From Candidatus Tayloriibacteriota bacterium (GTDB lineage: Bacteria; Patescibacteriota; Minisyncoccia; Phycocordibacterales; SIBU01), in NCBI GenBank assembly GCA_009695005.1, contig SIBU01000002.1, positions 7,274-71,273 on the forward strand: a DNA stretch of 64,000 bases. The letters run 5' to 3'. Positions 26,765 to 51,954 of this stretch are shown here, piece by piece. The first letter of the stretch is position 1, and every line of letters begins with the position of its first letter. A model generated the notes under the pieces. It ran no database searches, had not been told where the DNA came from, and saw nothing but the letters and a program-made list of their open reading frames with translations. The position numbers and the translations under genes were made by a program.

Positions 26765-26821
26765 ATTATTTTAAAAAAGTCAATACAAGTGACCAAGGAC
26801 GCTATATGTTAGTATGTGTTT

Positions 26822-30012: not shown

Positions 30013-31113
30013 TTATTTGAACTTAAACTTATTGATTATTTCAATCACACTTTCAATTTCCTTGTCAGTCAGCTCTGGAAATATCGGTAAGGAGATGATT
30101 TTCTCGGAATCGTTTTCAGTGTTGAGTAAGGATCCATTTTTGTAACCAAGAAATTCGTAGGCTTTTTGAAGATGGACAGGGAAGGGGTAATGAATGCCAA
30201 AACCTATACTGTTCTTTTTTAGATGATCAATGAAGGATTCTCGTTTTGAGATCTTTACAACGAATAGATGGAAAACGTGAAGATTTCCGTTTCGGATTTT
30301 AGGTAATTCAATCTCAGGATTGTCTATTTTCGAGAGATATTGGTGTGCAATGAAGGCGCGTCTTTCGTTGTTCGAATCAAGTGTTGGTAGTTTTGTTCTG
30401 AGAATAGCGGCTTGAATTTCGTCAAGTCTACTATTGAAGCCCTCTATATTTGCAAAATAGGTTTCTTGCATACCATACACTCTAAGTTGTCTGCAGGTAG
30501 TGGCGTATTCTTTCGAATTAGTAAGAATCATCCCTCCATCGCCGTAAGCGCCAAGGTTTTTTGTGGGATAGAAACTGAAACAAGAAAGATCACCAAAACT
30601 TCCAGCTTTTTTGTCTCCCGCTTTCGATCCAGTGGCTTGAGCACAGTCTTCAACCACTTTAAGGCTGTGTTTGTTGGCGATTTTCATTATCTCGACCATA
30701 TCAGCTGTTTGTCCGTAAAGGTGAACGGGTAACAAAACTTTTGCTTTTCTTGTGATTGCGGCTTCAATTTTTCTTACGTCCATTAAAAAATATTCATCCG
30801 TATCGACAAATACAGGTGTTGCTCCTAGCTCACGAATAGCACTGATTGTTGGGGTCGCTGTGTTTGAGACTGTGATTACTTCGTCTCCGGTTCCTACCCC
30901 CAGGGTCTTTAAGGCTATTTTTATAGCATCAGTTCCGGAGTTAACTCCTATTCCATGTGTGGTGCCGATATACGAGGAGAATTCCTTTTCAAACTTATTT
31001 ACTTCTTCATCAAGCACAAATTTACCAGAGTTTAAGACTCTTTTTATGGCAGCATTCGTTTCTGCTTCGGTTTTTTTTACCAATCGTGTTGCGTCAAAAA
31101 AAGGGATTATCAT
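30013..31113 (-). CDS. DegT/DnrJ/EryC1-family PLP sugar aminotransferase (FdtB/QdtB-like)
   Basis: [15 protein letters not shown] (Lys retained) and [12 protein letters not shown]. Adjacent to an FdtA-like isomerase. Confidence 0.7.
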
Positions 31114-31526
31114 TTTTGTATTAGCTTTTTAAACTCCTCGTAATCACGAATATAGTCTTTTTCGTCATAGACTGTGTCGGCGAGGACGAGCAATATCGTA
31201 TTTTTTTTGAAATTTTTCATCTTGTGCCACAAATATGGTTCAAGAAGCAATCCTTCACTGAGTTTAGAAAGTGTAATTGTTAATTTCTCCTTTCCACTAT
31301 CTAATTCTACGTCGCATTCTCCTGTGATTACGATAAGAACTTGTCTCATTTTGTGGTGGGTATGGTCACCTCGCACATCACTTTCCTTCATGCCTTGAGT
31401 AATAAGAGTTTTTTTTACAACAAATGGAATTTCATTATCTTTCGGTCCGAATTGAATAGGTGTAAGTGTGCCGGTACTATTACTAAATGATGAAAAATTT
31501 ATTATTTTGTATAAAGTGTTTATCAC
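31110..31526 (-). CDS. NDP-4-keto-6-deoxyhexose 3,4-ketoisomerase, FdtA/QdtA-like cupin
   Basis: [11 protein letters not shown]...FVVKKT...VRGDHTHHK...[17 protein letters not shown] matches the FdtA pattern (tlTPIeF..RG.HAHK..Qvl...G). GTG start at 31526 is needed to keep the N-terminus. Confidence 0.5.
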
Positions 31527-31533
31527 GGTAGGG

Positions 31534-32475
31534 TTATTTATTTTTATAATTAAGAAGTTTTAAATATTCTGGCAAGTATTTTTCCAGAGAGGTTTTTGGT
31601 TTCCAACCGAGTTTTCTAGATTTGGATGAGTCGACTGAGTATCGAATATCTTGTCCAAGTCGGTTCTCGACGAATTCGTAAAGGTTTTCTGGTTTACCCA
31701 TGGCTTTCAGTACCATTTTCACAATTTCCAGGTTGGTAAACATTTCTCCAGAAGAAATATTATAAATTTCACCATTCAAACCCTTCTCCATCATAAGAAA
31801 AATTCCCTCACAGTTGTCCCCTGCGTATGTCCATTCACGTAGGTACGATCCGTCTCCGTGTACCGTCATTTTCTCGTTTTTTGTGGCCAGATTTACTGTT
31901 TTGGAGATAAGTTTTTCTGGGTATTGCCCATGGCCATAATTATTGCTTGATCGACAAATTTTAGCCTTTAATCCATAAGTTTTTACCCAGCCGGAAATGA
32001 GCATTTCTGCCGCAGCCTTGGCTGCTGAGTAAGGATTTTCAGGGTGAAGTTGGTCGTTTTCTTTGGCCGAAAATCCTTCTTGTATTTCGCCGTATACCTC
32101 GTCTGTGGAGATGTGAATGAGTGTCGGCCGGTCATTTGGATCCTTGGATCGTATTAGCTCTAGCAAATTGTAGACTCCTCGAATATTACTTTCAAAAAAT
32201 AGACCGTTTGATGTAATTGCATTGTCTACATGTGATTCGGCAGCGAAATTTACAAGATAATCAGCATTTTGAGGTAAATATCGTAAGGTGGCTATATCTT
32301 CACGAATAAGTTCGTATTCTGGATGAGCATCAAAATTGAGATCGTGCCTGGCAGCATAAGTCATTTTGTCGATATTGATGACGTGGTAGCCGTTCTTCAA
32401 AAGCAAATCAACAAAGTAGCTTCCAATGAAGCCCAATCCTCCTGTCACTATTACTCTTCTTTTGATTTCTGCCAT
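31534..32475 (-). CDS. rmlB: dTDP-glucose 4,6-dehydratase (second copy)
   Basis: VIVTGGLGFIGSYF, NFAAESHVDNAI, STDEVYG and YSAAKAAAE. Confidence 0.7.
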   Translation of the reverse strand: MAEIKRRVIVTGGLGFIGSYFVDLLLKNGYHVINIDKMTYAARHDLNFDAHPEYELIREDIATLRYLPQNADYLVNFAAESHVDNAITSNGLFFESNIRGVYNLLELIRSKDPNDRPTLIHISTDEVYGEIQEGFSAKENDQLHPENPYSAAKAAAEMLISGWVKTYGLKAKICRSSNNYGHGQYPEKLISKTVNLATKNEKMTVHGDGSYLREWTYAGDNCEGIFLMMEKGLNGEIYNISSGEMFTNLEIVKMVLKAMGKPENLYEFVENRLGQDIRYSVDSSKSRKLGWKPKTSLEKYLPEYLKLLNYKNK

Positions 32476-32479: not shown

Positions 32480-33499
32480 TTATGATTGTATCATTTTAAT
32501 AATCGGTGACAAAAGCTTCTTGGTTGCGCGTCGTGATGGATAGTGGAATGTATTGTGCCAGAATTCCCTGAGACTTTTTTTGAGGGGTGGCCGGGGAGTG
32601 AGGCCGTGCGACCATTGTGGGTCTACGTGTCGGATTTGGTCTAAAATCCGGTAGAGTGTCTTTGCGTAGGGTCTATAGATGAGGTCTTTGGCAGGGGACG
32701 TTTTGGTGTATTTGTGAAAGATGTCGGGACCATAGGGCAAAAGTGGAGTGGGAGGATAGAGCACGAATCCCGAGTAGTGAAAAAATATGAGCGGTGTGTC
32801 CCCGATGTAGACAACACCATTTTTCTTTGTAACCTCTTTGCCTTCCATGTTCCATGTTGCAACATTTGCGCCTTCATTTTGAAGTGGGTGAACACCCATG
32901 AACTTTTCTTCAAAAAAATCCAGATATTTTTGGTCGCCATAACGATTTGGTTCAATCCTGTCGAAGCACCATTCAAGACATCGGTCTTGCCACCAATGTA
33001 AACATGCGAGGCCGTTCTCGTCTTTTCTGAAAATTGGCAAACTGACGTTATATTTCCCAACCTCCTTTTCTTTGTCTTTTCTGGTCCAGAATAATCGGTG
33101 TGGAATTATAAGAATTGAATGATTTTCAAATTCTTTGTAAATGGTTTCTGGTGACGAGAAAAAATAAGTGTCAGCGTCGAGGTACGCTATCGATTCTATA
33201 TCGTTGCGTTCCATGACATACAGAGTAAGTACTGAAGATAATGTCCAGCAATACTCACGGTTGTTTCGGGTTTTTTTTGCATTTAACACAGCCTCGGTTT
33301 CGATATCTTGAAGTGAAAGAAGTAGAACATTTTCTAGATTTAATTTTTCAAGTGTGGTGCGAGTTTCTGTATCCATACATAAAATCCAAAGTGTAAAGTT
33401 TTCAGCATGTTTAACAAGCGATTCGTGAAGAGCCACGCCTTTTAGTAAGAAACCTTTGTCAAAAAGAGTGCAGAAGTGGTAAGGGCTTTTCTGGGTCAT
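32480..33499 (-). CDS. Putative GT-A-like glycosyltransferase (DxD: YLDADTYF)
   Basis: Soluble 339-aa protein with a DAD motif. Sits within a glycan operon. No confident family. Confidence 0.3.
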   Translation of the reverse strand: MTQKSPYHFCTLFDKGFLLKGVALHESLVKHAENFTLWILCMDTETRTTLEKLNLENVLLLSLQDIETEAVLNAKKTRNNREYCWTLSSVLTLYVMERNDIESIAYLDADTYFFSSPETIYKEFENHSILIIPHRLFWTRKDKEKEVGKYNVSLPIFRKDENGLACLHWWQDRCLEWCFDRIEPNRYGDQKYLDFFEEKFMGVHPLQNEGANVATWNMEGKEVTKKNGVVYIGDTPLIFFHYSGFVLYPPTPLLPYGPDIFHKYTKTSPAKDLIYRPYAKTLYRILDQIRHVDPQWSHGLTPRPPLKKSLREFWHNTFHYPSRRATKKLLSPIIKMIQS

Positions 33500-34452
33500 A
33501 AAATTTTTTTTACTGTATTTTTTAGCATTCTGATTATTTTTGCTCCTTTGTTTGTTCTTCGGTTGTATAATTCTATTTTGGTAGTAATTATTTTTGTCTC
33601 ATCTATAAGGTCCTTAAAAATAGGATCGTTAAATTTTTTGTCACCATTTGAAGCGATTTCAAAAGCAAATCCATATTGTTTTTTGATAGTGGCAAATACC
33701 CAAAGTAATAAATACTCTCTAGTACCGAAAGATTCCATGTTTCCTTTGTTTATGTAAGATATCTCTGTCCATCCTGGTGATTCGATAGTTGATGATCGAA
33801 GACTATTTCCCAGTTTAGTGTTGAATTTTTCGTAACCTAGGGGCATTTTTCTTGCACCAATAACTCTCATTGTGCTCATCCAGAAATCCATTTTTTCCAT
33901 AAATTGCATCACCTCCCAGGCCTTATCCTCATTTTCGTAAGCTTCAATAATTCCAGGTTCAAAGTCCGCGACAAGAGTTCCCTCCATTATGTCTTTTCCC
34001 AGACTTTTAAAAATTTTAAGGTCGGTTCCTTGAGAATCAGTTTTGAACCAATCGATTCTTGAAATGTTTTTTGAAATAATAACTCTTTTTAAATTTTCTG
34101 TTTTGAGTTTTACTTCATTTTCGACTTTAAATAATGGAGCAATTGTCCATCTAGAATCAATTTTTGGTTTAAGTGTGCTTGAACAAAACGGGGAAGCGGT
34201 TAGGTAAAAATTACTGACATCATTTTCCGATTCAGTAACTATAGAATTGTTAATGTAAAGTTCGCGGTAAGGCGAGGTTCCTTCCTTTAGGTGCTTCATT
34301 TCTCGTATGTCAGGGTCAAAGGCGATACAGATTGCGTATTTGGCGATCTCTTTCCAATGAGAATAAAGATCGCCCGAAGCGCCAATGTCTACAAGTACTG
34401 GTGGACGGTCCACTAAAGTGGTGTGGTTGAAAATTTTTTCAAAAATTTTCAT
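33496..34452 (-). CDS. FkbM-family SAM methyltransferase
   Basis: VLVDIGASGDLYS and FKTDSQGTDLKIFKSLG (compare FkbM iKiDvEGaE..vL.G). Confidence 0.45.
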   Translation of the reverse strand: MKIFEKIFNHTTLVDRPPVLVDIGASGDLYSHWKEIAKYAICIAFDPDIREMKHLKEGTSPYRELYINNSIVTESENDVSNFYLTASPFCSSTLKPKIDSRWTIAPLFKVENEVKLKTENLKRVIISKNISRIDWFKTDSQGTDLKIFKSLGKDIMEGTLVADFEPGIIEAYENEDKAWEVMQFMEKMDFWMSTMRVIGARKMPLGYEKFNTKLGNSLRSSTIESPGWTEISYINKGNMESFGTREYLLLWVFATIKKQYGFAFEIASNGDKKFNDPIFKDLIDETKIITTKIELYNRRTNKGAKIIRMLKNTVKKIL

Positions 34453-35273
34453 TTTCTTTTAAAAATAAAGCCTCTATCGTTCGCAACAGTATCGTTTAGT
34501 TGGATGGTTCCAGCTAGGGCGTCCCATTCCGCAATATATTCATATTTGTCGGCTAGGAATTTAATAAATTTTTCCTTGTTGAAAAACCAAGCCGGATAGC
34601 TTGAGTCGTATATTTTTGGAGCTACTTTTTGGATAGTTATTCTATCTGGGCCATTTGGAATAAACGAAATTCTATCAAAAATAATATATTTAAAATTTAA
34701 AGCGATAGTCTTCTCTAAAATTTCGTATGGTTTTTCAATGTACTGAAGTACGCTAGAGAAGAGAGCTGTATTTGGTGAGGTTTCTTTGAAACATCCCTCT
34801 GTAGATTCAAAGAATTTGAGAGTGTTATCCTCAAATTCTTTCTTACCGGTTCTTACGAAATTCTGTTGTTCTACTATACTCCATTGGATTTTCGATAGAT
34901 GGGCAAGCATTTTTTTATTTTGAAAATAAGAACTTCCCAATGATCCGCCGAAATCCATTAGGTTCAGTTGGTTTCCCTCTTGCGAGCTAATCCAAAGAAG
35001 GCTGGCCAGCAATGGCCACGAATATTCGGGAGTTGCAAAAGTTACAGAGTCACGTTCGAAGGCCACTTCTCCTAGTTTGGCCTTTGTGGCACCAATTCTC
35101 ACCTTTTCTAGAACCGTGCTTGTGTCATAGCCAGTGGAATTTTTCTGAGCCTCTTTCCATGTAGGAAAATTCCCAAAAAAACCGAAAGATGATTGACCAT
35201 TAAGTTTTTTAATAGTCCGAGTAATTGCTGGCGGTAGCCAATTCTTTGCTATCTTTCGTATTTTATTTTTCAT
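34449..35273 (-). CDS. Putative class I SAM methyltransferase
   Basis: LMDFGGSLGSSYF (DxGGxxG motif I-like) and an N-terminal WLPP segment. Confidence 0.35.
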   Translation of the reverse strand: MKNKIRKIAKNWLPPAITRTIKKLNGQSSFGFFGNFPTWKEAQKNSTGYDTSTVLEKVRIGATKAKLGEVAFERDSVTFATPEYSWPLLASLLWISSQEGNQLNLMDFGGSLGSSYFQNKKMLAHLSKIQWSIVEQQNFVRTGKKEFEDNTLKFFESTEGCFKETSPNTALFSSVLQYIEKPYEILEKTIALNFKYIIFDRISFIPNGPDRITIQKVAPKIYDSSYPAWFFNKEKFIKFLADKYEYIAEWDALAGTIQLNDTVANDRGFIFKRK

Positions 35274-36102
35274 TATTTTTTGTGATACCTAAGATGTCAT
35301 CTAAGTTTTTTCTAGGAAAGAGATCTAGAAGTCCTCCATCCGTGGCGTTCGTTATGGAAATGTGCTCTTTTTTTGCAAAACTTCTGATTGAACGGTATTT
35401 GTCCCATAAACTGGCGTAGGATGCGCATTCCGTTCCAAAATCGCTTTCAGACCACTCGTTGTATCCTTTTTGACTCAAGACACTTTCTTTCTCTTCGAAA
35501 AAATGTCTGCTTTCTCCAACGTGCAGAATCCAATCATGGTCAACACCTAAAAGATTAATTTCTTTAACTCCAAGATATATCGCTAAATAGATGGCGACAT
35601 GAGGGACGGTTTGTATTTCCGGAAGATCCTTTGTGAAATCAATTTTCTTGTCAATTGGTTTGATCCCAAGGTAATAATAATAAACATTTTGTTTCTTAAA
35701 GACTTGATATCTCTCGACAATATGTTTGTCAGACAATGAGATCATAACATTCTGATTTTCAGGAAAGTGTTTCTCTGCGTCTTTAAACATTTCCCCAAAT
35801 TGGTCCTCTGTAATTGGTGGATGAGAGGGGGTGAAAACATGGAAGAATGGTTTGATGATTTTAAAGTCAGGATGAACAAAGAAATTACTGACGCTTATTG
35901 AAATCTCACCAGAAAGTTTTGAAAGATCTTGTCTTTTGATCGACGGACCTGTTGCCAGCACAAAACAGCGCCTGTTCGAAAAAACATTTTTAAGTCCAAT
36001 ATTTTTTTGAAGGAGTTTTCCGTCTCTCATTCTTAAATATATACTGTATATGTTAACCAATTTCCTACCTAAAATTGGTATTTTTTTAATTCTTTCCTTC
36101 AT
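35263..36102 (-). CDS. DUF115/MptE-like protein (motility-accessory-factor-like; putative nonulosonic-acid transferase)
   Basis: CFVLATGPSIKRQDLSKL (the G.GPSL motif of DUF115). Directly downstream of the NeuB-like gene. ORF ATG at 36198 overlaps the NeuB gene by 95 bp; the internal ATG at 36102 (MKERIKK) leaves a 1-bp gap. Either is possible. Confidence 0.4.
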   Translation of the reverse strand: MKERIKKIPILGRKLVNIYSIYLRMRDGKLLQKNIGLKNVFSNRRCFVLATGPSIKRQDLSKLSGEISISVSNFFVHPDFKIIKPFFHVFTPSHPPITEDQFGEMFKDAEKHFPENQNVMISLSDKHIVERYQVFKKQNVYYYYLGIKPIDKKIDFTKDLPEIQTVPHVAIYLAIYLGVKEINLLGVDHDWILHVGESRHFFEEKESVLSQKGYNEWSESDFGTECASYASLWDKYRSIRSFAKKEHISITNATDGGLLDLFPRKNLDDILGITKNNEK

Positions 36103-36103
36103 T

Positions 36104-38011
36104 TTAAAAATTGTGTTTTTGTAAACGTTTAAGTGCAGTGATGAATCCTTCGCCGTGATCACGATGACCCATCCAGATTTCCGGTGAAATGGTGACATCG
36201 ACTTTTAAAATTTCGGGCATGAGGATGTTCCATGGAACATCACCTTCACCCACCTGAAGACCTTCTCCGTCGGTACCGGCTCCATCTGATAGATGAATAT
36301 GTTTTATCAAAGGCTTCAATGTTTCAAAATATTTAATTGGATCTTTTTTCGCAAGTGTACAGTAAAGCTGGGCATGGCTACTGTCGTAACAGAGATTAAA
36401 ATTATGTTTCTTAGCGAACTCATATATTTCATCAGCATCGGTGAAAGTGTTTGAAAACCATGAACCTCCTTTGTACCACGGTAGAGGGGCTTGATTTTCC
36501 AGCAATAATTCAATGTCCGTTCGATCTATTTTTTCTAGGGCTTTGCCGAGACGAGTATACATTTTCGCACGTTCGTCTTTGGAAACAAAATCATCATAAC
36601 TCATGCCACCTGGATGAAGAACCACCTTGGCCTTTGTGGGGGTTTTTCCAAAATATTTTCTTATGGATCGAACAGTGTTTAGTAGGTCGTTGATGTTCTT
36701 GATGGAAGCATTCACAACAGAAGAGTCTGTGGAAGAAAAATCTAGAAGTTGGTCACCCCAAAGTTCAGGCGCGTGCACGATGAGTTCAAGTTCTGGATGG
36801 TTTTTGAAAGCCATCTGATTTTTTAGGTCGTGAGAACTGAAATGAAATTCAACAAATGAAGGTTTGAGTCCCGCAATCATTTCCTCGAAATCATGAGGTC
36901 GGACAATGAGCCCCCATTTTCTGCTAGATGAGAAATTGCGATTCAGCCTTTTTTTACCGAGGTCTTCTTCTGTAAAATAGTCATCCATTGGTATGTCGCG
37001 TTCGGCCTTTAAGCCAATCAATTTGTAAAGTTTCTGAGGAGAAAGGCCTTTGGCGGGACTTTTAGAAATAATCATTTCGCGTGTCAAAATTTCTCCTTTT
37101 TTTATTGGAACTTTAGCCACCAAACTTTTTCCTAGAATTTTTCTGTTGATAAGTTCTCCTGCTGTGATAAATTTTTTGTCACTTCTAAGCGCTTCTTCTA
37201 TTGCTCGTATATCTCTGACAAGTTTTTTTATACCAGTTGGTTCAAGTGAAATAGCATGGTCAGGTCCAGTCATGGTTCTGTCCAAAGTGATATGTCTTTC
37301 GATAACTTTGGCACCGAGCGGAATGGCCGCAGAACTTATGGCTATGCCATGTTCGTGGCCAGAGTAGCCAACCGGAACATTGAATTTTTCTTGAAGTGTT
37401 TTTATGAATCGTAAGTTTACGTCCTTCGGGGCAGTAGGGTAGGTGCTGTTGCAGTGAAGAAGAATGTATTCTGCATTAAGCTTGTTTAGAAAATCCACAG
37501 TGTCGCCGATTTCTTCCAAAGAGGACATTCCGGTGGAAACTATCATGGGCTTTTTCTTTGAAGCTATGTATTCAAGAAGTTCAAAATTTACCATGTCAGC
37601 AGAGGCGACTTTGTAGGCGGGCACATTTAGTTTTTCCAATGCGTTAACACTTGGAATATCCCAAGGTGTACACAAAAACATGATACCTTGATCTTTTGCG
37701 TACTTTGCAAGTTCTTTGAAATTTTCATGTGACAGTTCCGATTCTCGGATGAGAGACAAGATGTATTGAGTTGCGATATCTTCATTTTTTGTATTGTTCC
37801 ATGCCTTGTCGGTATAGAGGGTTTTGAAATCTCGCATTTGAAATTTCACGGCGTCGGCCTTGGCCTCAACAGCAACGTCGACAAGTTTTTTTGCCAGTTC
37901 TATTCTGCCGTTGTGGTTGATTCCGGCTTCGGCAATTATGAAAGTTGGCTGGTCTTCTCCGACCAATCTTTCGCCAATTTTAACTGTCTTTTTGTTGTTT
38001 GGTTTTTTCAT
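36104..38011 (-). CDS. Nonulosonic/sialic-acid synthase (NeuB/PseI/LegI family) + SAF domain fused to C-terminal xylose-isomerase-like TIM barrel
   Basis: N-terminus IIAEAGINHNGRIELAKKLVDVAVEAKADAVKFQ (NeuB). SAF region (KVPIKKGEILTREMI). The C-terminal ~270 aa carry HAPE...VLHPGG...LENQ...HLSDG, reminiscent of AP-endonuclease-2/xylose-isomerase-like barrels. Total 635 aa. Confidence 0.6.
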   Translation of the reverse strand: MKKPNNKKTVKIGERLVGEDQPTFIIAEAGINHNGRIELAKKLVDVAVEAKADAVKFQMRDFKTLYTDKAWNNTKNEDIATQYILSLIRESELSHENFKELAKYAKDQGIMFLCTPWDIPSVNALEKLNVPAYKVASADMVNFELLEYIASKKKPMIVSTGMSSLEEIGDTVDFLNKLNAEYILLHCNSTYPTAPKDVNLRFIKTLQEKFNVPVGYSGHEHGIAISSAAIPLGAKVIERHITLDRTMTGPDHAISLEPTGIKKLVRDIRAIEEALRSDKKFITAGELINRKILGKSLVAKVPIKKGEILTREMIISKSPAKGLSPQKLYKLIGLKAERDIPMDDYFTEEDLGKKRLNRNFSSSRKWGLIVRPHDFEEMIAGLKPSFVEFHFSSHDLKNQMAFKNHPELELIVHAPELWGDQLLDFSSTDSSVVNASIKNINDLLNTVRSIRKYFGKTPTKAKVVLHPGGMSYDDFVSKDERAKMYTRLGKALEKIDRTDIELLLENQAPLPWYKGGSWFSNTFTDADEIYEFAKKHNFNLCYDSSHAQLYCTLAKKDPIKYFETLKPLIKHIHLSDGAGTDGEGLQVGEGDVPWNILMPEILKVDVTISPEIWMGHRDHGEGFITALKRLQKHNF

Positions 38012-39015
38012 TTTTGTTTTAGTTTTCTGTATATACCTCTAGTTACTCTATATAACGGTCCTGTTAAGCGAAATGTTTCAAATGCGACGTGCCGAAAAGA
38101 AAATTTCTTTAGGGCGTAATACCACCGTAAACGCTTGGTTTTTTTAAGATAATCCAGTATTTTTTTTGAGTTTTCGGTTTCGGTGCTGTTTGTCCCAGAT
38201 TTGCTTTTGTAGATGGCCGTAATTATTTCATTGCCATAGATTAACTCGAAGCCGGATTTGGCCAGAAGGGAATTGAGGGTTTTTAAGGTGAAATACCACA
38301 CATGAGCATTTTGAAGGTAACCCATAAGATCTCCTCGGTAGGTGTCGTGAATGCTGTAAATTCCAGGGAGGGCAATGTAGAGTACTCCATTTGGTGACAG
38401 CAGTGTTTTAATTCTTTCAAGTTCTTCTTGAGGTTTAAGCATGTGCTCCAGTGTATGGTTTAGGATAACGATATCCGCTGTGCCGAATTGCTTGAGTGTT
38501 TCCGCACTGCCTTCCACTAAATTCAAATTTCGCGTATTACCAAATTCTATATATGAGCGACCATAATCACATCCGAATACCTCGTTACCGTTTTCTTTGA
38601 AAGCTTCCAGGATACCACCAGCACCACAACCTATCTCAAAAATTCTTTTTCCAGTAAGCTTTCCATTAAAAATTTTTTCAGAAAGAAGGTTTTTTATAAT
38701 TCTTCCGAAAGTTTTTTGGCTCATAAAGAATTCAGACGTTGCTTTGTCAGTACCGGTGTAAAGTGGACGGTATTCCTTGCTGTAGAATTGACCAAGGGTA
38801 TTTTCATCGTAGTACGGATCGGATCGAACTAGACCACAAGATTCACAAAGAACCGTCTTGATTGGAATGTCGTAGCGATCATTTTCGGCAAGAATGATGC
38901 CATTTATCTTTCCACAAATACATGGATTCTCTGTAGTTCGATATTCACCATTTTTCATTTTTCGAACAATGTCGTTGCGTGCAACTATCATTGCCTTGGT
39001 GATTGGTACAGCCAT
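38008..39015 (-). CDS. Class I SAM methyltransferase with N-terminal CxxC..CxxC zinc ribbon
   Basis: CICGK...CESCGLV and IFEIGCGAGGILEAF. Confidence 0.55.
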   Translation of the reverse strand: MAVPITKAMIVARNDIVRKMKNGEYRTTENPCICGKINGIILAENDRYDIPIKTVLCESCGLVRSDPYYDENTLGQFYSKEYRPLYTGTDKATSEFFMSQKTFGRIIKNLLSEKIFNGKLTGKRIFEIGCGAGGILEAFKENGNEVFGCDYGRSYIEFGNTRNLNLVEGSAETLKQFGTADIVILNHTLEHMLKPQEELERIKTLLSPNGVLYIALPGIYSIHDTYRGDLMGYLQNAHVWYFTLKTLNSLLAKSGFELIYGNEIITAIYKSKSGTNSTETENSKKILDYLKKTKRLRWYYALKKFSFRHVAFETFRLTGPLYRVTRGIYRKLKQK

Positions 39016-39016
39016 A

Positions 39017-40096
39017 TTATTTTATATTTTTCAAATTAAGCACTTCGACAATGCGATTACAAAAATATTCCGTTGAGAATTTTTTGCAACGCTCAGTTTG
39101 AAGATACTTTTCTCCAGCAGCAATCATTTCATTGTACTGACTTTCAGTAACTCCTTTTAAATATTTGGCCAGTTGTTCATCGTTTTTAAATTTCCGTCTA
39201 TCAATAAAGGCGTCTTCGTCGACATAATCTAGGATGTTGGAAGCGCCCCAGTATATTGGGACTGCCTTAGCCTGAAGAGCGTCAAATATTTTTTCCGTTA
39301 CGTATCCTTTTGCGCCGGACATATTTTCGTAGGCAAGCGCAAATTTATATTTAGACATGGTGCTTATTTTGTTTTCCGCTGGTCCACGGTAGCAGGCAAA
39401 TTTTGGCACTAACCAGGGGAAGTACTTTTGAAGTCGTGTTCTTGGTGTATGCCAAAGCGCGCCATAAAGGTCAAAATCTTTTGGGTAGTGAGAGCTGAAG
39501 TAGGCGCTGGTTCGGGCTCTGGCTGAATATAATTCGTTAGGTCGTGGGTAGTATCGATTGGCCGACATGTTTATTAAAAGCTTTTTTTCATGAAAGGTTG
39601 GGAGTGTTGTTGGTGTTTGACGAAGCGGAATAGGCAGGAAGAATTTGAAAAATTTAATATTATCAACGAGGTCATCATTCCAGGTGAAAAAGTATTTGAA
39701 CTTTTCGAAAACTTGATCCGTGTAGTTTTCTGGGTTGTTGACCTGTCCTTCCCACAGAAACATCGCCATTTTATCCTTCAAACCTTTTTCAATCGCTTCT
39801 CTATATAGTGCTCTGGTTGGCCAGTTCGAATTGCGGTTTCGAATACGCAAGATTTTTTTGATTAAAGACTTGATTGTGTTTTTAGGGAGAAGTCCATCAA
39901 CACTAGGTGAATCGATAAAAAGAATCCACTCGCAATCCTCAAGCTTATGATTGTCTGCAGTAACCAATTCATAGCCGAGTTCTTCGAGACGGGCTTTAAG
40001 TTTTTGCCAAGGCTCGTTCATGTTGTTTACGTCTATGCCGAAAATAGCGTTATTCGCATAAACTGAATTTGGCACTTGGAGAAGGATTTTTTTCAT
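39017..40096 (-). CDS. GT10 alpha-1,3/4-fucosyltransferase-like glycosyltransferase
   Basis: C-terminal KYKFALAYENMSGAKGYVTEKIFDAL matches the GT10 FxLxFENSxxxxYxTEK motif. Confidence 0.6.
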   Translation of the reverse strand: MKKILLQVPNSVYANNAIFGIDVNNMNEPWQKLKARLEELGYELVTADNHKLEDCEWILFIDSPSVDGLLPKNTIKSLIKKILRIRNRNSNWPTRALYREAIEKGLKDKMAMFLWEGQVNNPENYTDQVFEKFKYFFTWNDDLVDNIKFFKFFLPIPLRQTPTTLPTFHEKKLLINMSANRYYPRPNELYSARARTSAYFSSHYPKDFDLYGALWHTPRTRLQKYFPWLVPKFACYRGPAENKISTMSKYKFALAYENMSGAKGYVTEKIFDALQAKAVPIYWGASNILDYVDEDAFIDRRKFKNDEQLAKYLKGVTESQYNEMIAAGEKYLQTERCKKFSTEYFCNRIVEVLNLKNIK

Positions 40097-40112: not shown

Positions 40113-41057
40113 TTAAAGAGGTTTCCAGATTACAATCGAATAACCTTCAATAAATTGACTGCCAATATAAGTTCTTTTGGTTTCGATTATTTTTATTTTA
40201 CCCATTAGTTCAAGCTCCTTCAGGTAATCGAGAAAGCCGTTTAGATAATTTCTCTTTCTGAAATATTTGATAGACAAGTTATCAATCAGTCTGTTTTCAT
40301 CAAGCATTTCGGCAATCGGTTCGATGTGTATGCAAAGTTCCGGTTTATTTTTTATAAGGTAGGAGACAAAATTTTTATGATTTTTGCCAACCTGTTCAAG
40401 TGCGGCTACTGTGTAGATAGCGGAATTTTCTGCAATTTTAACTTGTTTGTTCGGTTTAAAAAAGTCAAAATTGTATCCCGTGATATTTTGCACTAGGCCA
40501 GAGTCAACCATTTTTTTAAGTATCTTTTGTGAAGATTTCGCCCAATCGAGGCCGAATAGATTTACTGTAGGATTAACTTCTCGTAATTTAAGTAGATTGT
40601 GGCCAGTTCCGCAACCAAACTCATAGATGTTTTCAAACTTTCGGAAATGTTTGTCAAAAACATAGTCCAAAATTACATAAAGCATGTTTCTTTCATAATT
40701 AGGAGAAATGCCTTTGACAAAACTTTGATTCAGTCGATTTATTGCGTATTTGCCGTGGTAGTGGGGGAATACTGCGTCAACGGTATTTTGCTCATCGAGT
40801 TCGGTGAGATTTTGCCCCCAGCCCTTTTCCCACTGTTTCAGTCGGTGAGGACCGGAATATACTAAAAAGGGGTCGAGTAAAGTGTTGATGATTTTAATCA
40901 GAATCTGCTCTTCCTCTTGCTTTTCGAGCGGTGAATAGACCAATTTGTAACCATCAATTTTATTTTTGACGTACTCACTTAGCTTTTCGTTCCAAAGTTT
41001 TTCAAAATCTATGTAGTTTAAAGTGATTTTTTTCATGTTTATCAACGTATTGTACAT
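40113..41057 (-). CDS. Class I SAM methyltransferase
   Basis: IYEFGCGTGHNLLKL (motif I) and LFGLDWAKSS. Confidence 0.5.
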   Translation of the reverse strand: MYNTLINMKKITLNYIDFEKLWNEKLSEYVKNKIDGYKLVYSPLEKQEEEQILIKIINTLLDPFLVYSGPHRLKQWEKGWGQNLTELDEQNTVDAVFPHYHGKYAINRLNQSFVKGISPNYERNMLYVILDYVFDKHFRKFENIYEFGCGTGHNLLKLREVNPTVNLFGLDWAKSSQKILKKMVDSGLVQNITGYNFDFFKPNKQVKIAENSAIYTVAALEQVGKNHKNFVSYLIKNKPELCIHIEPIAEMLDENRLIDNLSIKYFRKRNYLNGFLDYLKELELMGKIKIIETKRTYIGSQFIEGYSIVIWKPL

Positions 41058-41170: not shown

Positions 41171-41854
41171 ATGGAAACTAATACTAATGCTAGGGAAATT
41201 TTTGTTCGTAACAGAGCAAAGTTTGCCGGTCTTTTTGAGAGAATTAAGGCAATCCATCACGAAATTGTTGTCGCTGGTCGCGATGTCAACGGGCACGGAT
41301 TTGACCATGACGTCATGGTTGCACAGTATGCTGCCATGATTTCGGAAAATGAACGTGTTGCTGAGATGGCGTGGGTTGCAGGACTCATGCATAGCCTCGA
41401 CCGACACTTTCCCGATAGCTTTAATGCTAAAATAGAGGAATGTATTGTTTTGGTCGGGCACCTGTTTTCAGTGGCTGAAATCGAAGAGATTCGAGTGGCG
41501 GATAGGGTTCACTCACGTCTGAACGATCCCTTGGACGGACCCGTGACAATCGCGCTCAAGGATGCTGATCGGTTGGCCAATGTCGGTGCGCTCAACATTA
41601 TTCGTGGTGGTCAGCATCGACCTAACATTCCTGCCTGTGTGATGGAGTCACTTGGTGGTCTTAATCCAGCATCAACTTTTAAAAGACCCGCCAGTTGCTA
41701 TGATGCAACTTTTTACAACCTAGAGTGGTGGGATATGTTGCGATCGGAGAAAGCCCGTGATCTTGGGAGAGCCGATTTTGAATATACCAGGGCCTGGCAG
41801 CGGAGCGTCGAAGCAAAGTTTGCTCAAGTTGGCCTTTTCCCTTGGAAAACATAA
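41171..41854 (+). CDS. HD-domain-like phosphohydrolase (putative); GC-rich island
   Basis: HHEIVV...GHGFDHDVMVAQYAAMI...LMHSLDRH is an H..HD..H..D pattern. Preceded by a GGGGG SD-like run. On the opposite strand to its flanking operons. Confidence 0.4.
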   Translation: METNTNAREIFVRNRAKFAGLFERIKAIHHEIVVAGRDVNGHGFDHDVMVAQYAAMISENERVAEMAWVAGLMHSLDRHFPDSFNAKIEECIVLVGHLFSVAEIEEIRVADRVHSRLNDPLDGPVTIALKDADRLANVGALNIIRGGQHRPNIPACVMESLGGLNPASTFKRPASCYDATFYNLEWWDMLRSEKARDLGRADFEYTRAWQRSVEAKFAQVGLFPWKT

Positions 41855-41986: not shown

Positions 41987-42958
41987 ATGAAAACAAAAAT
42001 ATTAGGTCGTACGGGTTTGAACGTTCCAATTGTGGGGCTGGGAACAGCCTTTATCGGAATTCCAACTCCTGAGCAGGCGGCAAGGGAATATAAAGGTGCA
42101 AGTCAGATGATTCATGAGCTTGGTGTTAAAACTGTTGTTGCCGCATTAAATGCCGGTTGTACGTTAATTGACACTGCTGTTATATATGGCAGGACACAGA
42201 GTGAAAAAATGATAGGGGAAGCTTTGCAGCTTTGTCCCAAACTTGCCAAGCAATGTATTGTGACAACCAAAGTTGGTAAATGCTTGGATCTTAGCACTTT
42301 CAATTATAATGCTGATTTTATCACTCGGAGTGTTGAGGAAAGTTTAGCGCGTCTCAAGCTTAAACGAATTGAAATCGTATATGTTCACGATGCCATGGGC
42401 GCTTCGATGCAAGATTTGTTTGGCAAGGGGAAAATTGTCGATTCTCTTAGAATTCTTCAGAAACGTGGTCTGGTTCGATTTATCGGTACTGCTTCAAATG
42501 ATCCTGAAGTTAATGCTGACCTTATCGAAACAGGTGAGTTTGATGTTGCTGTTGTTTGTGAAGCGTGGAGCCTACTTAATCAACTTGCGTATAAGCGGAT
42601 ACTACCAGCGGCTGAAAGGCATAATGTAGGTCTTGTTATTGCCGCGCCGCTTGAACGAGGGCTGTTGGCAACGGGTCCCGTGCACAATATGATCTACGAT
42701 GACCGAAATTTTAGCCAAACTTGTCTTGAACATGTGGTGAAGATTAAAAAATTGTGTGAGAAGCACGGAATTTCTATGGCAGCGGCTGCGCTTCAGTGGT
42801 GTACACGACATCCTCAAGTTGCATCAACAATTCCTGGTGCCAGGCTTCCGGAGGAAGCAGTCTCCAATATTAAAGCCGGCGAGATGGAAATTCCAGAGAG
42901 TTTTTGGGATGATTTAAAACCACTTATTCGTAATTTTGAAAAAGGTAATGGGCGATAG
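41987..42958 (+). CDS. Aldo/keto reductase family oxidoreductase
   Basis: KILGRTGLNVPIVGLGTAFIG is an AKR N-terminus. ~320 aa. Confidence 0.65.
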   Translation: MKTKILGRTGLNVPIVGLGTAFIGIPTPEQAAREYKGASQMIHELGVKTVVAALNAGCTLIDTAVIYGRTQSEKMIGEALQLCPKLAKQCIVTTKVGKCLDLSTFNYNADFITRSVEESLARLKLKRIEIVYVHDAMGASMQDLFGKGKIVDSLRILQKRGLVRFIGTASNDPEVNADLIETGEFDVAVVCEAWSLLNQLAYKRILPAAERHNVGLVIAAPLERGLLATGPVHNMIYDDRNFSQTCLEHVVKIKKLCEKHGISMAAAALQWCTRHPQVASTIPGARLPEEAVSNIKAGEMEIPESFWDDLKPLIRNFEKGNGR

Positions 42959-42974: not shown

Positions 42975-43009
42975 AAGATGTGGTATTGAATCCACGTCTT
43001 TTTTATTTT
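42975..43009 (+). terminator. Candidate rho-independent terminator after AKR gene
   Basis: aagatgtgg-tattgaat-ccacgtctt followed by ttttattttc (one mismatch in the stem). Confidence 0.35.
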
Positions 43010-43932
43010 CTTATATTAGGATAATTTTCAATAAACCACCGAACGGTTTTTTTGACACCTTTTTCTATAGACGTAAATTTGAAATCAGGTTTGTATTTCA
43101 AAAATTTTGTGGTGTCGGATGGTTTACGGAATTGACCATCTGGTTTTGAGGAGTCAAGAGTAATTTTACCTTTAAAATTCATTTCCTTGGCAATCATTTT
43201 GACCAAATTTTCGATGCTGACTTCAGCTCCAGAGGATAAAATAATAGGGGAGGGTTCATTGTAATTTTTTAGAGCCCAAATTGCCAGTTTTCCAATATCA
43301 TCTGACAGGACAAATTCGCGGAGTGGTTTGCCACTGCCCCATACATAAAGATCCGTATTGTTCTTTTTGGCTAAGTAGCATTTCTGGATGAGAGATGGAA
43401 CCACATGTCCTTCAGTAGGGCTGAAATTATCATTAGGACCATAGATGTTTGTGGGTATGGCGACGATAAAATTGCAACCCCATTCGTTTCTGTAGGCGTT
43501 ACTTTGTACCTCAAGCATTCTTTTCGCGTAGGCATAGCCAAAATTTGAAGGATGGGGCGGACCATTGTGAAGATTTTTTTCGTTTAAGGGGTATTCGCAT
43601 TTGTCCGGAAAGATGCAAGTGGACATAAAGGAAATTAATTTTTTGACATCGGTAAGTCTGGCTGCTTCCAAAACATTTATATTAATCATAATGTTGTTAC
43701 GGAAGTATTCTCCGGTGTGCATGCTGTTGCCCCCGATACCTCCAACTTGGGCAGCCAGATGAATAACGTGAGTGGGCTTGTGTTTTTTGAAAATTTTAAG
43801 TGTTTGATTGAAATCAGTTAAATCACCGTCTTTGCGCGATAAAAAAATCGCATTAGGAACTTTCAGTCTTTTAAGAGCTGAACCGATTAGTCCACTTCCG
43901 CCCGTTACCAATATTTTTTCTGGATTTTTCAT
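43003..43932 (-). CDS. GDP-4-keto-6-deoxymannose epimerase/reductase paralog (Fcl/ColC-like)
   Basis: KILVTGGSGLIGSAL, HLAAQVGGI, FMSTCIFPDKCEYPLNE, YAYAKRM and IPTNIYGPNDNF all follow the Fcl pattern. It is more divergent than the fcl copy next to gmd. Confidence 0.55.
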   Translation of the reverse strand: MKNPEKILVTGGSGLIGSALKRLKVPNAIFLSRKDGDLTDFNQTLKIFKKHKPTHVIHLAAQVGGIGGNSMHTGEYFRNNIMININVLEAARLTDVKKLISFMSTCIFPDKCEYPLNEKNLHNGPPHPSNFGYAYAKRMLEVQSNAYRNEWGCNFIVAIPTNIYGPNDNFSPTEGHVVPSLIQKCYLAKKNNTDLYVWGSGKPLREFVLSDDIGKLAIWALKNYNEPSPIILSSGAEVSIENLVKMIAKEMNFKGKITLDSSKPDGQFRKPSDTTKFLKYKPDFKFTSIEKGVKKTVRWFIENYPNIRK

Positions 43933-51270: not shown

Positions 51271-51954
51271 ATGATAAATAATCTCAAAATAGTTGGACTG
51301 GTCCCTCTTAGAGGTGGGTCAAAGTCTATACCGTATAAGAACATAAAAACCTTGGCGGGTAAGCCTTTGTGCTACTGGGTTCTTAAGGCGGCTACTGATT
51401 CCAAGTACATAGATGAGGTTTGGGTTTCAACTGAGGATAAAAAAATTAAAGACACAGTTTTGTCGTTTGGTTTGGGTGTGAAAGTTATAGATAGACCAGC
51501 TGAATTAGCCCAAGATAACTCTTCAACTGAATCAGTTATGATGCATTTTGCTAAAGAAGTGTCTTTTGATATTTTGATTACAATTCAGGCCACTTCACCT
51601 TTGACTGAAAATCAAGATTTAGATTTGGCAATTGAACAGTTTGTCGAGGGAAAGATGGACAGTATGGTGTCGGGAGTGCAATTAAAACGTTTCTTCTGGA
51701 CTCATGAGGGTGTGCCACTGAATTATAATCCTTTGAAACGTCCCTTGAGGCAGGAGTGGAACGGTACCATTATGGAGAATGGAGCTTTTTATATTACAAA
51801 GAGAGAAATTCTAGACACTCTTAAAAATCGCCTTGGAGGTAAAATAGGGGTGTTTAAAATGCCTGAACATACCGCTGTGGAAATCGACGAGCCGGAAGAT
51901 TGGTTGTTTATTGAGAATCGACTTTCCGGTCATTTTAAAAAATCAAAGGCTTAA
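51271..51954 (+). CDS. CMP-nonulosonic acid (acylneuraminate) cytidylyltransferase-like (NeuA/PseF/LegF/KdsB family)
   Basis: KIVGLVPLRGGSKSIPYKNIKTLAGKPL and VWVSTEDKKI. 227 aa. Confidence 0.6.
   Translation: MINNLKIVGLVPLRGGSKSIPYKNIKTLAGKPLCYWVLKAATDSKYIDEVWVSTEDKKIKDTVLSFGLGVKVIDRPAELAQDNSSTESVMMHFAKEVSFDILITIQATSPLTENQDLDLAIEQFVEGKMDSMVSGVQLKRFFWTHEGVPLNYNPLKRPLRQEWNGTIMENGAFYITKREILDTLKNRLGGKIGVFKMPEHTAVEIDEPEDWLFIENRLSGHFKKSKA

What the first reader, a model, noticed from the sequence alone, without database searches (positions are those of the whole stretch)
35263..40096. Nonulosonic-acid module with NeuB-TIM-barrel fusion, DUF115/Maf-like protein and flanking methyltransferases
The 635-aa synthase joins a NeuB/PseI/LegI-type aldolase (plus SAF domain) to a ~270-aa xylose-isomerase-like barrel (HAPE...HPGG...ENQ...HLSDG). 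I do not recognise this fusion as described. It is followed by a DUF115/MptE-like protein and is surrounded by four MTases. A NeuA-like CMP-sugar synthetase lies at 51271-51954. No NeuC/PseB-type upstream enzymes are obvious, so the nonulosonic acid may be unusual (possibly methylated, or Kdn-like).
Basis: partly seen in the sequence, partly recalled or inferred. Interest (0 to 1): 0.7.

Follow-up and report, generated by a model that had tools for sequence, protein, structure and literature searches.

The report
Sialic-acid-type synthase fused to metallo-barrel
A candidate-phylum bacterium carries a sialic-acid-type sugar synthase permanently fused to an uncharacterised metal-binding barrel domain; this fusion is found in hundreds of uncultured bacteria and archaea, always with the enzyme that activates the sugar, and probably marks an unstudied route to a (methylated) nine-carbon surface sugar.

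Summary

The fusion is not a local oddity. At least 584 stretches in species-representative genomes encode it. All 80 loci examined are colinear. CBS-extended, methyltransferase-extended and naturally split forms also exist.

- **Conserved partner:** a CTP_transf_3 cytidylyltransferase, present in 68 of 79 loci and directly upstream in 46. In this window its ortholog sits 13 kb away, at 51271-51954.
- **Recurrent partner:** a small DUF115/MptE-like protein, found in 19 loci. Its family profile weakly matches GT42 sialyltransferases.
- **Methyltransferases:** four flanking ones are confirmed. A 959-aa relative fuses the adjacent methyltransferase type onto the synthase.

The synthase half is not an equivalog of NeuB or PseI. 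It lacks the essential Arg314 and shares signature columns with human Neu5Ac-9-phosphate synthase. The barrel is closest to MJ1311 and endonuclease IV, and keeps 7 of the 9 trinuclear-zinc ligand positions.

My best inference, at about 0.45, is a phosphosugar-using synthase fused to the phosphatase that removes the 9-phosphate. A substrate-forming epimerase or isomerase is the main rival. I found no literature on the fusion. I rate it a new variant of a known kind.

The parts
36104..38011 (-). 635-aa three-domain protein: NeuB-type synthase + SAF + xylose-isomerase-like metallo-TIM barrel
37175..37885 (-). NeuB catalytic barrel (aa 43-279). PEP and metal residues are conserved (E28, K56, Q58, K134, S137, H219, E238, H240, D251). 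Carries the signatures GYSGHE and KFQMR.
36959..37126 (-). SAF/antifreeze-like domain (aa 296-351). Has Ser318 where NmNeuB has the essential Arg314.
36107..36916 (-). C-terminal TIM barrel (aa 366-635). Invariant H413, H466, E505, D543, H546, H573, D576, E583, E611, H616, R371. Closest to MJ1311 and endonuclease IV.
35266..36102 (-). Small DUF115/MptE-like protein (279 aa from M33; the maximal ORF runs to 36198). Candidate CMP-sugar-dependent glycosyltransferase.
38008..39015 (-). Class I SAM methyltransferase with an N-terminal Cys motif. Overlaps the synthase start by 4 nt. A homologous domain is fused to the synthase in P0064.
39017..40096 (-). GT10-like glycosyltransferase (fucosyltransferase C-terminal domain). 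Conserved next to the fusion in Taylorbacteria locus L006.
40113..41057 (-). Probable methyltransferase (weak Pfam hits and a weak Pse_Me-ase hit). Its cluster recurs near the fusion in L006 and L011.
34449..35273 (-). TIGR04325 (LIC12133-type) methyltransferase. Recurs near the fusion in L006 and L011.
33496..34452 (-). FkbM-family methyltransferase
51271..51954 (+). CTP_transf_3 cytidylyltransferase (CMP-ulosonic acid synthetase type). Ortholog of the gene that lies directly upstream of the fusion in most genomes.

Best explanation
The 635-aa protein is the core enzyme of a compact pathway for a sialic-acid-like (nonulosonic, possibly Kdn-type) sugar.

1. The N-terminal NeuB-SAF half condenses PEP with an aldose. 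This is inferred from intact catalytic residues.
2. The aldose is most likely a sugar 6-phosphate such as Man-6-P or ManNAc-6-P, giving a nonulosonate 9-phosphate, as animal NANS does. This is inferred from signature columns.
3. The fused C-terminal barrel is an MJ1311/endonuclease-IV-like multi-metal hydrolase that removes the 9-phosphate. This is inferred from ligand conservation.
4. The partner cytidylyltransferase (51271-51954) then makes the CMP-sugar. The functional linkage is shown by gene-neighbourhood conservation; the activity is inferred.
5. The flanking SAM methyltransferases methylate the sugar. The linkage is shown by a gene fusion in a relative; the target atom is unknown.
6. 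The small DUF115 protein transfers the sugar to an acceptor. The acceptor is likely the glycan made by this roughly 54-kb ABC-transporter-dependent locus, or a surface protein.
For: **Architecture and catalytic residues**
- Domain architecture is established.
- Alignment with NmNeuB shows the catalytic residues are conserved.

**Distribution**
- All of the top 120 homologs share the architecture.
- At least 584 genome stretches encode a relative, and 80 of 80 loci are colinear.
- The C-terminal profile finds 288 clusters at 50% identity with E <= 1e-30.
- Split form L086 has an ATGA overlap exactly at the domain boundary. The two halves therefore work together as separate units.

**Partners**
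- CTP_transf_3 is in 68 of 79 loci and at position -1 in 46. The same holds in Orenia, Rokubacteria and the CBS variant.
- The window's copy is 67%, 58%, 55%, 45% and 41% identical to those adjacent copies.
- Minimal loci contain only cytidylyltransferase, fusion and DUF115 (L007). In Orenia the set is Maf, cytidylyltransferase, fusion, Maf, within a flagellin island. No dedicated upstream enzyme is present, so the substrate probably comes from central metabolism.

**Synthase half resembles the phosphosugar-using enzyme**
- The Arg314 equivalent is S, G or C in every family member, as it is non-Arg in human NANS. All canonical free-sugar enzymes have R-P there.
- The fusion family shares GYSGHE and a basic residue after KFQ with NANS. 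Canonical enzymes have SDH(T/S) and an aromatic residue. The NANS sequence was verified as exact.

**Barrel half resembles a phosphoesterase**
- The barrel profile hits MJ1311 at 1e-16, then endonuclease IV at 3.7e-5, 6.8e-5 and 1.8e-3. The only sugar isomerase hit is at 2.5e-3.
- Invariant H413, H466, E505, D543, H546, H573 and E611 align to seven of the nine endonuclease IV zinc-ligand positions.
- It is established knowledge that endonuclease IV has 3'-phosphatase activity.

**Other**
- No recurrent HAD phosphatase cluster appears in the 79 loci.
- The methyltransferase link comes from P0064.
- DUF115 matches MptE-like, with weak GT42 sialyltransferase and Maf matches.
Against: - No biochemical data exist for any member.
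- The D-x-H pair of endonuclease IV's third zinc site is replaced by G-E583-G. The metal centre is therefore not the canonical trinuclear one.
- NCBIfam's weak best hits for the barrel are an epimerase and an isomerase, at 25 and 17 bits.
- Overall similarity of the synthase half to NANS (42%, 266 bits) is matched by its similarity to canonical environmental NeuB paralogs (43%, 276-293 bits). Only the signature columns point to a phosphosugar.
- The role of those signature columns in phosphate binding is my inference, not established.
- I could not inspect model coordinates to confirm the geometry of the metal site.
Confidence: 0.45

Rival explanations
1. The barrel is an epimerase or isomerase that makes the synthase's aldose substrate from a ubiquitous metabolite. 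Examples are GlcNAc-6-P to ManNAc-6-P, Glc-6-P or Fru-6-P to Man-6-P, or a free ketose to an aldose. This would be enediolate or hydride-shift chemistry, as in ketose 3-epimerases and xylose isomerase. The fusion would then be a 'substrate-maker plus synthase'.
For: - The fold and the E-D-H-E tetrad (E505, D543, H573, E611) are those of the sugar isomerase/epimerase superfamily.
- The weak NCBIfam hits are to fructoselysine 3-epimerase and hydroxypyruvate isomerase.
- Minimal three-gene loci have no other upstream enzyme. A fused substrate-forming step would also explain self-sufficiency.
- No NeuC or NanE-type gene is associated.
Against: - Profile-to-PDB matches favour MJ1311 and endonuclease IV over any isomerase.
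- The invariant His pair H413/H466 corresponds to endonuclease IV Zn1 ligands. From memory, ketose 3-epimerases have small or hydrophobic residues at these positions.
- If the synthase uses a 6-phosphosugar, a phosphatase would still be missing from the conserved module.
- Man-6-P should already be available in a cell that makes GDP-fucose (gmd and fcl at 48819-50890).
Confidence: 0.25
2. The barrel modifies the nonulosonate after condensation, for example by dehydration, hydration or epimerisation next to a carbonyl, as in the IolE, AsbF, YcjR or keto-glucal hydratase members of the superfamily. The pathway would then yield a structurally new ulosonic acid.
For: - Many loci add tailoring enzymes around the fusion: GFO/IDH/MocA oxidoreductase, radical SAM, DegT, methyltransferases, sulfotransferases plus PAPS synthase. 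This indicates heavily modified sugars.
Against: - A 3-deoxy-2-ulosonic acid has no stereocentre at C3 to epimerise.
- No specific sequence similarity to those subfamilies was found.
- Universal fusion to the synthase, rather than to the tailoring genes, argues for a core step and not a tailoring step.
Confidence: 0.15
3. The module makes ordinary Neu5Ac, legionaminic acid or pseudaminic acid, and the barrel is an accessory or regulatory domain without a pathway-specific catalytic role.
For: - The NeuB_NnaB model scores 357 bits.
- Database names say N-acetylneuraminate synthase.
Against: - The score is below the equivalog cutoffs for NeuB (399.65) and PseI (340.25).
- Arg314 is absent.
- No NeuC, PseB, LegB or acetyltransferase genes are associated.
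- In Rokubacteria the fusion coexists with a separate canonical NeuB + NeuC + PglD-like set.
- About 25 invariant residues lie at the barrel's catalytic face.
Confidence: 0.07

Closest known systems
Animal N-acetylneuraminate-9-phosphate synthase (NANS) plus NANP phosphatase, and the Bacteroides Kdn-9-P synthase plus HAD phosphatase pathway
   Same: - NeuB + SAF/AFP architecture.
- 42% identity to human NANS.
- Shared GYSGHE motif, a basic residue after KFQ, and no Arg at the NmNeuB-314 position.
- The same pathway logic: synthase, then phosphatase, then CMP-synthetase.
   Different: - The phosphatase candidate is a fused xylose-isomerase-like metallo-TIM barrel, not a separate HAD enzyme.
- Phosphosugar use is untested.
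- The sugar may be methylated.
Bacterial NeuB, LegI and PseI nonulosonic acid synthases (N. meningitidis NeuB, C. jejuni PseI, B. subtilis SpsE)
   Same: - NeuB barrel with conserved PEP and metal residues, plus a SAF domain.
- 33-36% identity.
   Different: - Below the NCBIfam equivalog cutoffs.
- Lacks the essential SAF-domain Arg.
- No NeuC, PseB or LegB context.
- Carries about 270 extra residues of TIM barrel.
MJ1311 (PDB 3wqo) and endonuclease IV (Nfo)
   Same: - Seven of nine zinc-ligand positions are conserved.
   Different: - The D-x-H of the third metal site is replaced by G-E-G.
- The domain is fused to a sugar synthase, not a DNA repair enzyme.
- MJ1311's own function is unknown.
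Maf (motility-associated factor) flagellin nonulosonic-acid transferases and GT42 sialyltransferases (CstI/CstII)
   Same: - The downstream protein has the MptE-like/DUF115 core.
- Its family profile weakly matches CstI/CstII and Maf.
- In Orenia the fusion sits among true Maf genes in a flagellin island.
   Different: - Only about 280 aa.
- No Maf_flag10_N domain.
- The host is a Patescibacterium in a polysaccharide-type locus, so the acceptor is probably not flagellin.

Membership tests
NeuB/PseI/LegI nonulosonic acid synthase | NeuB TIM-barrel domain with conserved PEP- and metal-binding residues | tested here: met
   PF03102 at 297 bits. E28, K56, Q58, K134, S137, H219, E238, H240 and D251 are invariant and align to NmNeuB E25, K53, Q55, K129, S132, H215, E234, H236 and D247. 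The NmNeuB residue numbers are from memory.
NeuB/PseI/LegI nonulosonic acid synthase | C-terminal SAF/antifreeze-like domain | tested here: met
   PF08666 at 34 bits, cutoff 21. Aligns to the PseI and human NANS AFP domains.
NeuB/PseI/LegI nonulosonic acid synthase | SAF-domain arginine (NmNeuB Arg314) that contacts the substrate's N-acetyl group | tested here: not met
   Ser318 aligns to position 314, which is A or K in the mutant chains 4ipi and 4ipj. The family has S, G or C there. Canonical enzymes have R-P.
NeuB/PseI/LegI nonulosonic acid synthase | Score above the NCBIfam equivalog cutoffs (NeuB_NnaB 399.65; PseI 340.25) | tested here: not met
   357 and 262.5 bits.
NANS-type nonulosonate-9-phosphate synthase | Uses a sugar 6-phosphate; sequence signatures shared with human NANS | tested here: inconclusive
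   Signature columns are shared. However, overall similarity is no higher than to canonical environmental NeuB. Substrate use is not testable here.
   Only 15-20 bits, against cutoffs of 268-486.
Xylose isomerase-like TIM barrel (PF01261 / AP_endonuc_2) | Pfam match above the gathering score, and the fold | tested here: met
   [not shown]
Endonuclease IV | Nine-residue trinuclear zinc site | tested here: not met
   Seven of nine positions are conserved. The D-x-H pair is replaced by G-E583-G.
Endonuclease IV | DNA-binding groove and AP-endonuclease activity | not testable with these tools
Fusion to a sugar synthase makes a DNA role unlikely.
Ketose 3-epimerase / sugar isomerase subfamilies | Match to curated subfamily models (FrlC, Hyi, UlaE and others) | tested here: not met
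   The best are 25.4 bits (FrlC, cutoff 305) and 16.9 bits (Hyi, cutoff 353).
Maf / DUF115 (MptE-like) glycosyltransferase | MptE-like domain | tested here: inconclusive
   The window protein scores 31.1 bits, below the 34.6 cutoff. All 21 orthologs match, with a best E of 4.5e-15.
Maf / DUF115 (MptE-like) glycosyltransferase | Maf_flag10_N domain and flagellin-locus context | tested here: not met
   There is no such domain in the 279-aa protein. The context is a polysaccharide locus.
CMP-nonulosonate synthetase (CTP_transf_3) | Pfam domain, and conserved adjacency to the synthase | tested here: met
   108 bits. Present in 68 of 79 loci, and the window copy is orthologous to the adjacent copies. 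It is below the PseF equivalog cutoff, 97 against 205.7.

The most novel reading that the evidence does not exclude
The fused barrel defines a new class of sugar-phosphate phosphatase built on the endonuclease IV/MJ1311 metallo-TIM scaffold, replacing the HAD phosphatases NANP, KdsC and Kdn9PP. The family would reveal a widespread prokaryotic NANS-type (phosphosugar) route to Kdn-like, often methylated or sulfated, nonulosonic acids. That route would span Patescibacteria, Chloroflexota, DPANN and Asgard archaea.
Probability: 0.4. Interest if true: 0.75.

Novelty: new variant of a known kind. Interest (0 to 1): 0.62.

Why it matters
Nonulosonic acids decorate flagella, pili, S-layers and capsules, and they mediate host and phage interactions. 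Current genome-based prediction of these sugars relies on the NeuB, LegI and PseI paradigms with NeuC or PseB-type upstream genes.

This fusion marks a large family that those rules misname as Neu5Ac synthase. It covers hundreds of species, mostly uncultured, and includes CPR bacteria, Chloroflexota, DPANN and Asgard archaea.

If the barrel is the 9-phosphatase, three things follow:
- It would be a non-homologous replacement of the HAD phosphatases.
- It would be the first assigned function for the MJ1311-like branch of the endonuclease IV lineage.
- The phosphosugar (animal-type) route would turn out to be common in prokaryotes.

The compact three-gene module is also attractive for enzymatic synthesis of CMP-activated sialic acid analogues.

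Tried and rejected
- **Leptospira origin.** I suspected a Leptospira rfb locus because of about 38% GC and the TIGR04325 'LIC12133' methyltransferase. I rejected this: the synthase is 100% identical to a Candidatus Taylorbacteria MAG protein.
- **Literature.** Seven searches found nothing on the fusion or on MJ1311 function: NeuB + xylose isomerase/AP_endonuc_2, nonulosonic + xylose isomerase, sialic acid synthase + sugar phosphate isomerase, MJ1311, nonulosonic + Patescibacteria, endonuclease IV + sugar phosphate phosphatase. One further query was rejected for syntax.
- **'Specifically NANS-like' by overall similarity.** I rejected this as stated. Canonical environmental NeuB paralogs are equally similar to the fusion and nearly as similar to NANS. 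Only the signature columns were retained as evidence.
- **Assembly or frameshift artefact.** Rejected. 76 of 80 loci have a single ORF. The four with frame changes are colinear, and at least three of them are MFD-labelled MAG assemblies.
- **Unannotated ORFs as hidden cytidylyltransferases.** In related loci, clusters c35 and c41 look like methyltransferases by sequence inspection only; I did not run them against Pfam. Window ORF 41171-41854 has no Pfam hit.
- **Upstream of stand-alone barrel P0126.** The short contig L089 shows only a Lys-rich 38-aa fragment, which is uninformative.
- **Model coordinates.** They were not available to scripts, so metal-site geometry and the relative orientation of the two active sites could not be measured.

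Full report
**1. Observation**

The window has about 38% GC. It carries a tightly packed minus-strand gene string from 41057 down to 28964.

ORF 36104-38011 (-) encodes 635 aa. Pfam finds:
- NeuB at aa 43-279 (E 1e-88).
- SAF at aa 296-351.
- AP_endonuc_2, the xylose isomerase-like TIM barrel, at aa 404-630 (E 1.4e-18, 68 bits against a cutoff of 31.1).

DAHP and Kdo8P synthase models score only 15-20 bits, against 357 bits for NeuB_NnaB.

The synthase protein is 100% identical to one from a Candidatus Taylorbacteria MAG. The host is therefore a Patescibacterium (CPR).

**2. Surroundings in the window**

| Coordinates | Strand | Content |
|---|---|---|
| 38008-39015 | - | Methyltransf_23 methyltransferase; overlaps the synthase start by 4 nt |
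| 39017-40096 | - | GT10-like glycosyltransferase |
| 40113-41057 | - | weak methyltransferase |
| 35263-36198 | - | small MptE-like/DUF115 protein, downstream of the synthase |
| 34449-35273 | - | TIGR04325 methyltransferase |
| 33496-34452 | - | FkbM methyltransferase |
| 32480-33499 | - | GT8-like protein |
| 30013-32475 | - | SDR / FdtA / DegT amino-sugar set |
| 51271-51954 | + | CTP_transf_3 cytidylyltransferase |

Orthologs of the DUF115 protein are 265-297 aa. The likely start is M33 at 36102, one base past the synthase stop codon.

The rest of 791 to about 55000 is one large glycan locus. It contains:
- dTDP-deoxy, amino and C-methyl sugar genes;
- GDP-fucose genes;
- heptose-type genes;
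- a split transketolase;
- the Wzm/Wzt ABC transporter;
- a Wzy_C + TPR ligase-like protein;
- GT-C enzymes.

No Epimerase_2 (NeuC/LegG), PseB/LegB-type or PglD/PseH-type gene was found.

**3. The fusion is a large family**

- All 120 best database homologs, down to 46% identity, have the same three domains (two partial sequences aside). They come from Patescibacteria, Rokubacteria, Nitrospinota, Orenia marismortui, Nanoarchaeia and Helarchaeota.
- The best 80 loci are mostly Chloroflexota/Anaerolineales. Others are Saccharibacteria, Paceibacterota, Methanosarcinales, Methylomirabilota, Acidobacteriota, Actinomycetota and Thermodesulfovibrionales.
- All 80 loci are colinear NeuB-SAF-barrel. 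76 have a single ORF and four have a frame change.
- An exhaustive profile search found 288 clusters at 50% identity with E <= 1e-30.

Architectures seen in that search:
- the three-domain form;
- a frequent CBS-NeuB-SAF-barrel form of about 730-777 aa;
- a form without SAF;
- stand-alone barrels that start exactly at the domain boundary.

In L086, a 349-aa NeuB-SAF gene overlaps a 278-aa barrel gene by ATGA. This is a natural split. P0064 (959 aa) adds a C-terminal methyltransferase that is homologous (E 4e-17) to the window's 38008-39015 gene.

**4. Conserved partners**

I called ORFs in 79 non-redundant loci and clustered the neighbours.

- **Cytidylyltransferase.** The CTP_transf_3 cluster, which includes the window's 51271-51954 gene, occurs in 68 of 79 loci and is the gene immediately upstream in 46. 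The window copy is 67%, 58%, 55%, 45% and 41% identical to the adjacent copies in L012, L014, L034, L004 and L001. This parallels the synthase identities. It is therefore the orthologous partner, displaced here by 13 kb, with an HTH_17 gene next to it.
- **DUF115.** The small DUF115 cluster occurs in 19 loci. In Patescibacteria it lies 1 to 4 genes downstream of the fusion. All 21 members match MptE-like. The family profile weakly matches the GT42 sialyltransferases CstI/CstII (E 0.016-0.08) and Maf.
- **Minimal loci.** L007 holds only cytidylyltransferase, fusion and DUF115. Orenia marismortui has Maf, DUF8042, cytidylyltransferase, fusion, then two more Maf genes a few genes downstream, within a flagellin island.
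- **Chloroflexota.** These loci add a Capsule_synth (KpsC/S-like) protein at +1, an SDR, PAPS synthase, sulfotransferases, a GFO/IDH/MocA oxidoreductase, a methyltransferase, an amino-acid-ACP ligase plus ACP, and extra SAF-less NeuB paralogs.
- **Rokubacteria.** The fusion, with its own cytidylyltransferase, coexists with a separate canonical NeuB + NeuC + PglD-like set. The fusion is therefore not simply that pathway's synthase.
- **Absent partners.** No NeuC-type or HAD-phosphatase cluster is recurrent.

**5. What the two halves look like**

*Synthase half*

- The catalytic and metal residues of NmNeuB are conserved.
- The protein scores below the NeuB and PseI equivalog cutoffs.
- NmNeuB Arg314 is essential; PDB entries 4ipi and 4ipj are its A and K mutants. 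It aligns to Ser318, and the family has S, G or C there, never Arg.
- Human NANS is the Neu5Ac-9-phosphate synthase. I recalled its sequence from memory and verified it as exact SIAS_HUMAN. It also lacks Arg at that position.

An alignment with reference enzymes shows three columns that separate two groups:

| Column | Fusion family and NANS | Canonical free-sugar enzymes (NmNeuB, PseI, SpsE, Leptospira, two environmental canonical NeuB) |
|---|---|---|
| Metal-His motif | GYSGHE | S-D-H-T/S |
| After KFQ | basic residue (KFQ[MK]R in the fusion; KFQKS in NANS) | aromatic residue |
| NmNeuB-314 position | no Arg | R-P |

The Chloroflexi NeuB-only paralogs share the first two columns with the fusion family. 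They lack the SAF domain, so the third cannot be scored for them.

Overall similarity does not discriminate. It is 42%/266 bits to NANS and 43%/276-293 bits to a canonical environmental NeuB.

*Barrel half*

- A family profile hits MJ1311 (E 1e-16). Next come endonuclease IV from B. anthracis, M. tuberculosis and T. maritima (3.7e-5 to 1.9e-3). Only one putative sugar isomerase appears, at 2.5e-3.
- Invariant H413, H466, E505, D543, H546, H573 and E611 align with seven of endonuclease IV's nine zinc-ligand positions.
- The D-x-H pair is replaced by G-E583-G. MJ1311 keeps D-E-H there.
- Further invariant residues are R371, D374, D395, D576 and H616.

**6. Mechanism**

*Shown*
- The fusion, its breadth and its split form.
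- The conserved cytidylyltransferase partner.
- The recurrent DUF115 partner.
- The methyltransferase gene-fusion link.
- The absence of canonical upstream genes.

*Inferred*
- The synthase condenses PEP with a centrally available aldose 6-phosphate. Man-6-P giving Kdn-9-P is the most economical option, since the cell makes GDP-fucose.
- The endonuclease IV-like barrel hydrolyses the 9-phosphate. It is established knowledge that endonuclease IV has 3'-phosphatase activity.
- The cytidylyltransferase activates the sugar.
- The methyltransferases modify it.
- The DUF115 protein transfers it.

A further speculation concerns the locus type. It has a Wzm/Wzt transporter, and Wzt has a near-threshold carbohydrate-binding Wzt_C domain. 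The methylated ulosonic acid could therefore be the chain-terminating cap, as β-Kdo or methyl groups are in other ABC-dependent O-antigen systems. I did not test this.

I put the synthase-plus-phosphatase reading at about 0.45. The rivals are:
- a substrate-forming 2-epimerase or isomerase, about 0.25;
- a post-condensation modifying enzyme, about 0.15;
- an ordinary NeuB with an accessory domain, about 0.07.

**7. Novelty**

Databases already hold and generically name these proteins. Seven full-text literature searches found no description of the fusion or of a function for the MJ1311-like branch.

It belongs to a known kind, nonulosonic acid biosynthesis. It differs by an uncharacterised, universally conserved extra catalytic domain and a non-canonical substrate signature. 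I therefore rate it a new variant of a known kind, with moderate to high interest.

Noticed in passing
window 15845-16654 (+): A 269-aa ORF with a GTG start matches only the pyruvate kinase barrel domain (261 bits, two stretches). It sits inside the glycan locus. It could be a truncated or divergent PK, or a PEP-handling enzyme, which may matter because NeuB consumes PEP.
   Followed up: no
window 45073-46754 (-), with 43003-45073 (-) and 41987-42958 (+): Split transketolase (N-terminal and Pyr/C-terminal subunits) next to two SDR epimerase/dehydratases and an aldo-keto reductase. The same pair of transketolase subunits and the SDRs are conserved upstream of the fusion in Taylorbacteria locus L006. 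This suggests a two-carbon sugar-branching or chain-extension pathway.
   Followed up: partly
window 9639-14137 (-): NDP-hexose 2,3-dehydratase, a GFO/IDH/MocA reductase, an RmlD-like reductase and a sugar C-methyltransferase (Methyltransf_13/14). This is a branched-chain 2,6-dideoxysugar (mycarose-like) pathway, unusual for a CPR bacterium.
   Followed up: no
window 24797-28960: Heptose-type gene set: GHMP kinase (HddA-like), an unknown 292-aa ORF, an SDR, an NTP_transferase and a GmhB-like HAD phosphatase. Homologs of this GHMP kinase sit two genes upstream of the fusion in two Zipacnadia loci (L018, L040).
   Followed up: partly
window 50948-51196 (-): An HTH_17 (excisionase/MerR-like) gene lies between gmd and the displaced cytidylyltransferase. 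It may mark the rearrangement that separated the cytidylyltransferase from the synthase in this genome.
   Followed up: no
window 21469-22635 (+): A 388-aa ORF with no Pfam match. Its only homolog in the fetched loci lies immediately downstream of the fusion in Saccharibacteria locus L011.
   Followed up: no
window 46717-47985 (-) and 52082-54406 (+): Wzt ABC ATPase with a near-threshold Wzt_C carbohydrate-binding domain (29.1 bits against a cutoff of 30.4), and a 774-aa Wzy_C + TPR protein. Together they resemble ABC-dependent, cap-terminated glycan export plus an O-oligosaccharyltransferase or ligase, as in S-layer glycosylation loci.
   Followed up: no
L019-L085 (Chloroflexota loci), e.g. 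L053, L058, L074: One or two extra ~290-aa NeuB paralogs without a SAF domain sit beside the fusion. They carry the same GYSGHE and KFQKR signatures. Nearby are PAPS synthase, sulfotransferases, an amino-acid-ACP ligase plus ACP, and an AAC(3)-like acyltransferase. This implies sulfated or acylated ulosonic acids.
   Followed up: partly
P0144, P0151, P0165, P0187; locus L087 5585-7828: A frequent four-domain variant with an N-terminal CBS domain (CBS-NeuB-SAF-barrel, about 730-777 aa), also preceded by CTP_transf_3. The CBS domain suggests nucleotide-dependent regulation.
   Followed up: partly
L004 6465-7952 (Helarchaeota): A CTP_transf_3 domain fused to a class-V aminotransferase (495 aa), next to a Metallophos_2 phosphoesterase and a methyltransferase of the window's 38008-39015 type, all beside the fusion.
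   Followed up: no
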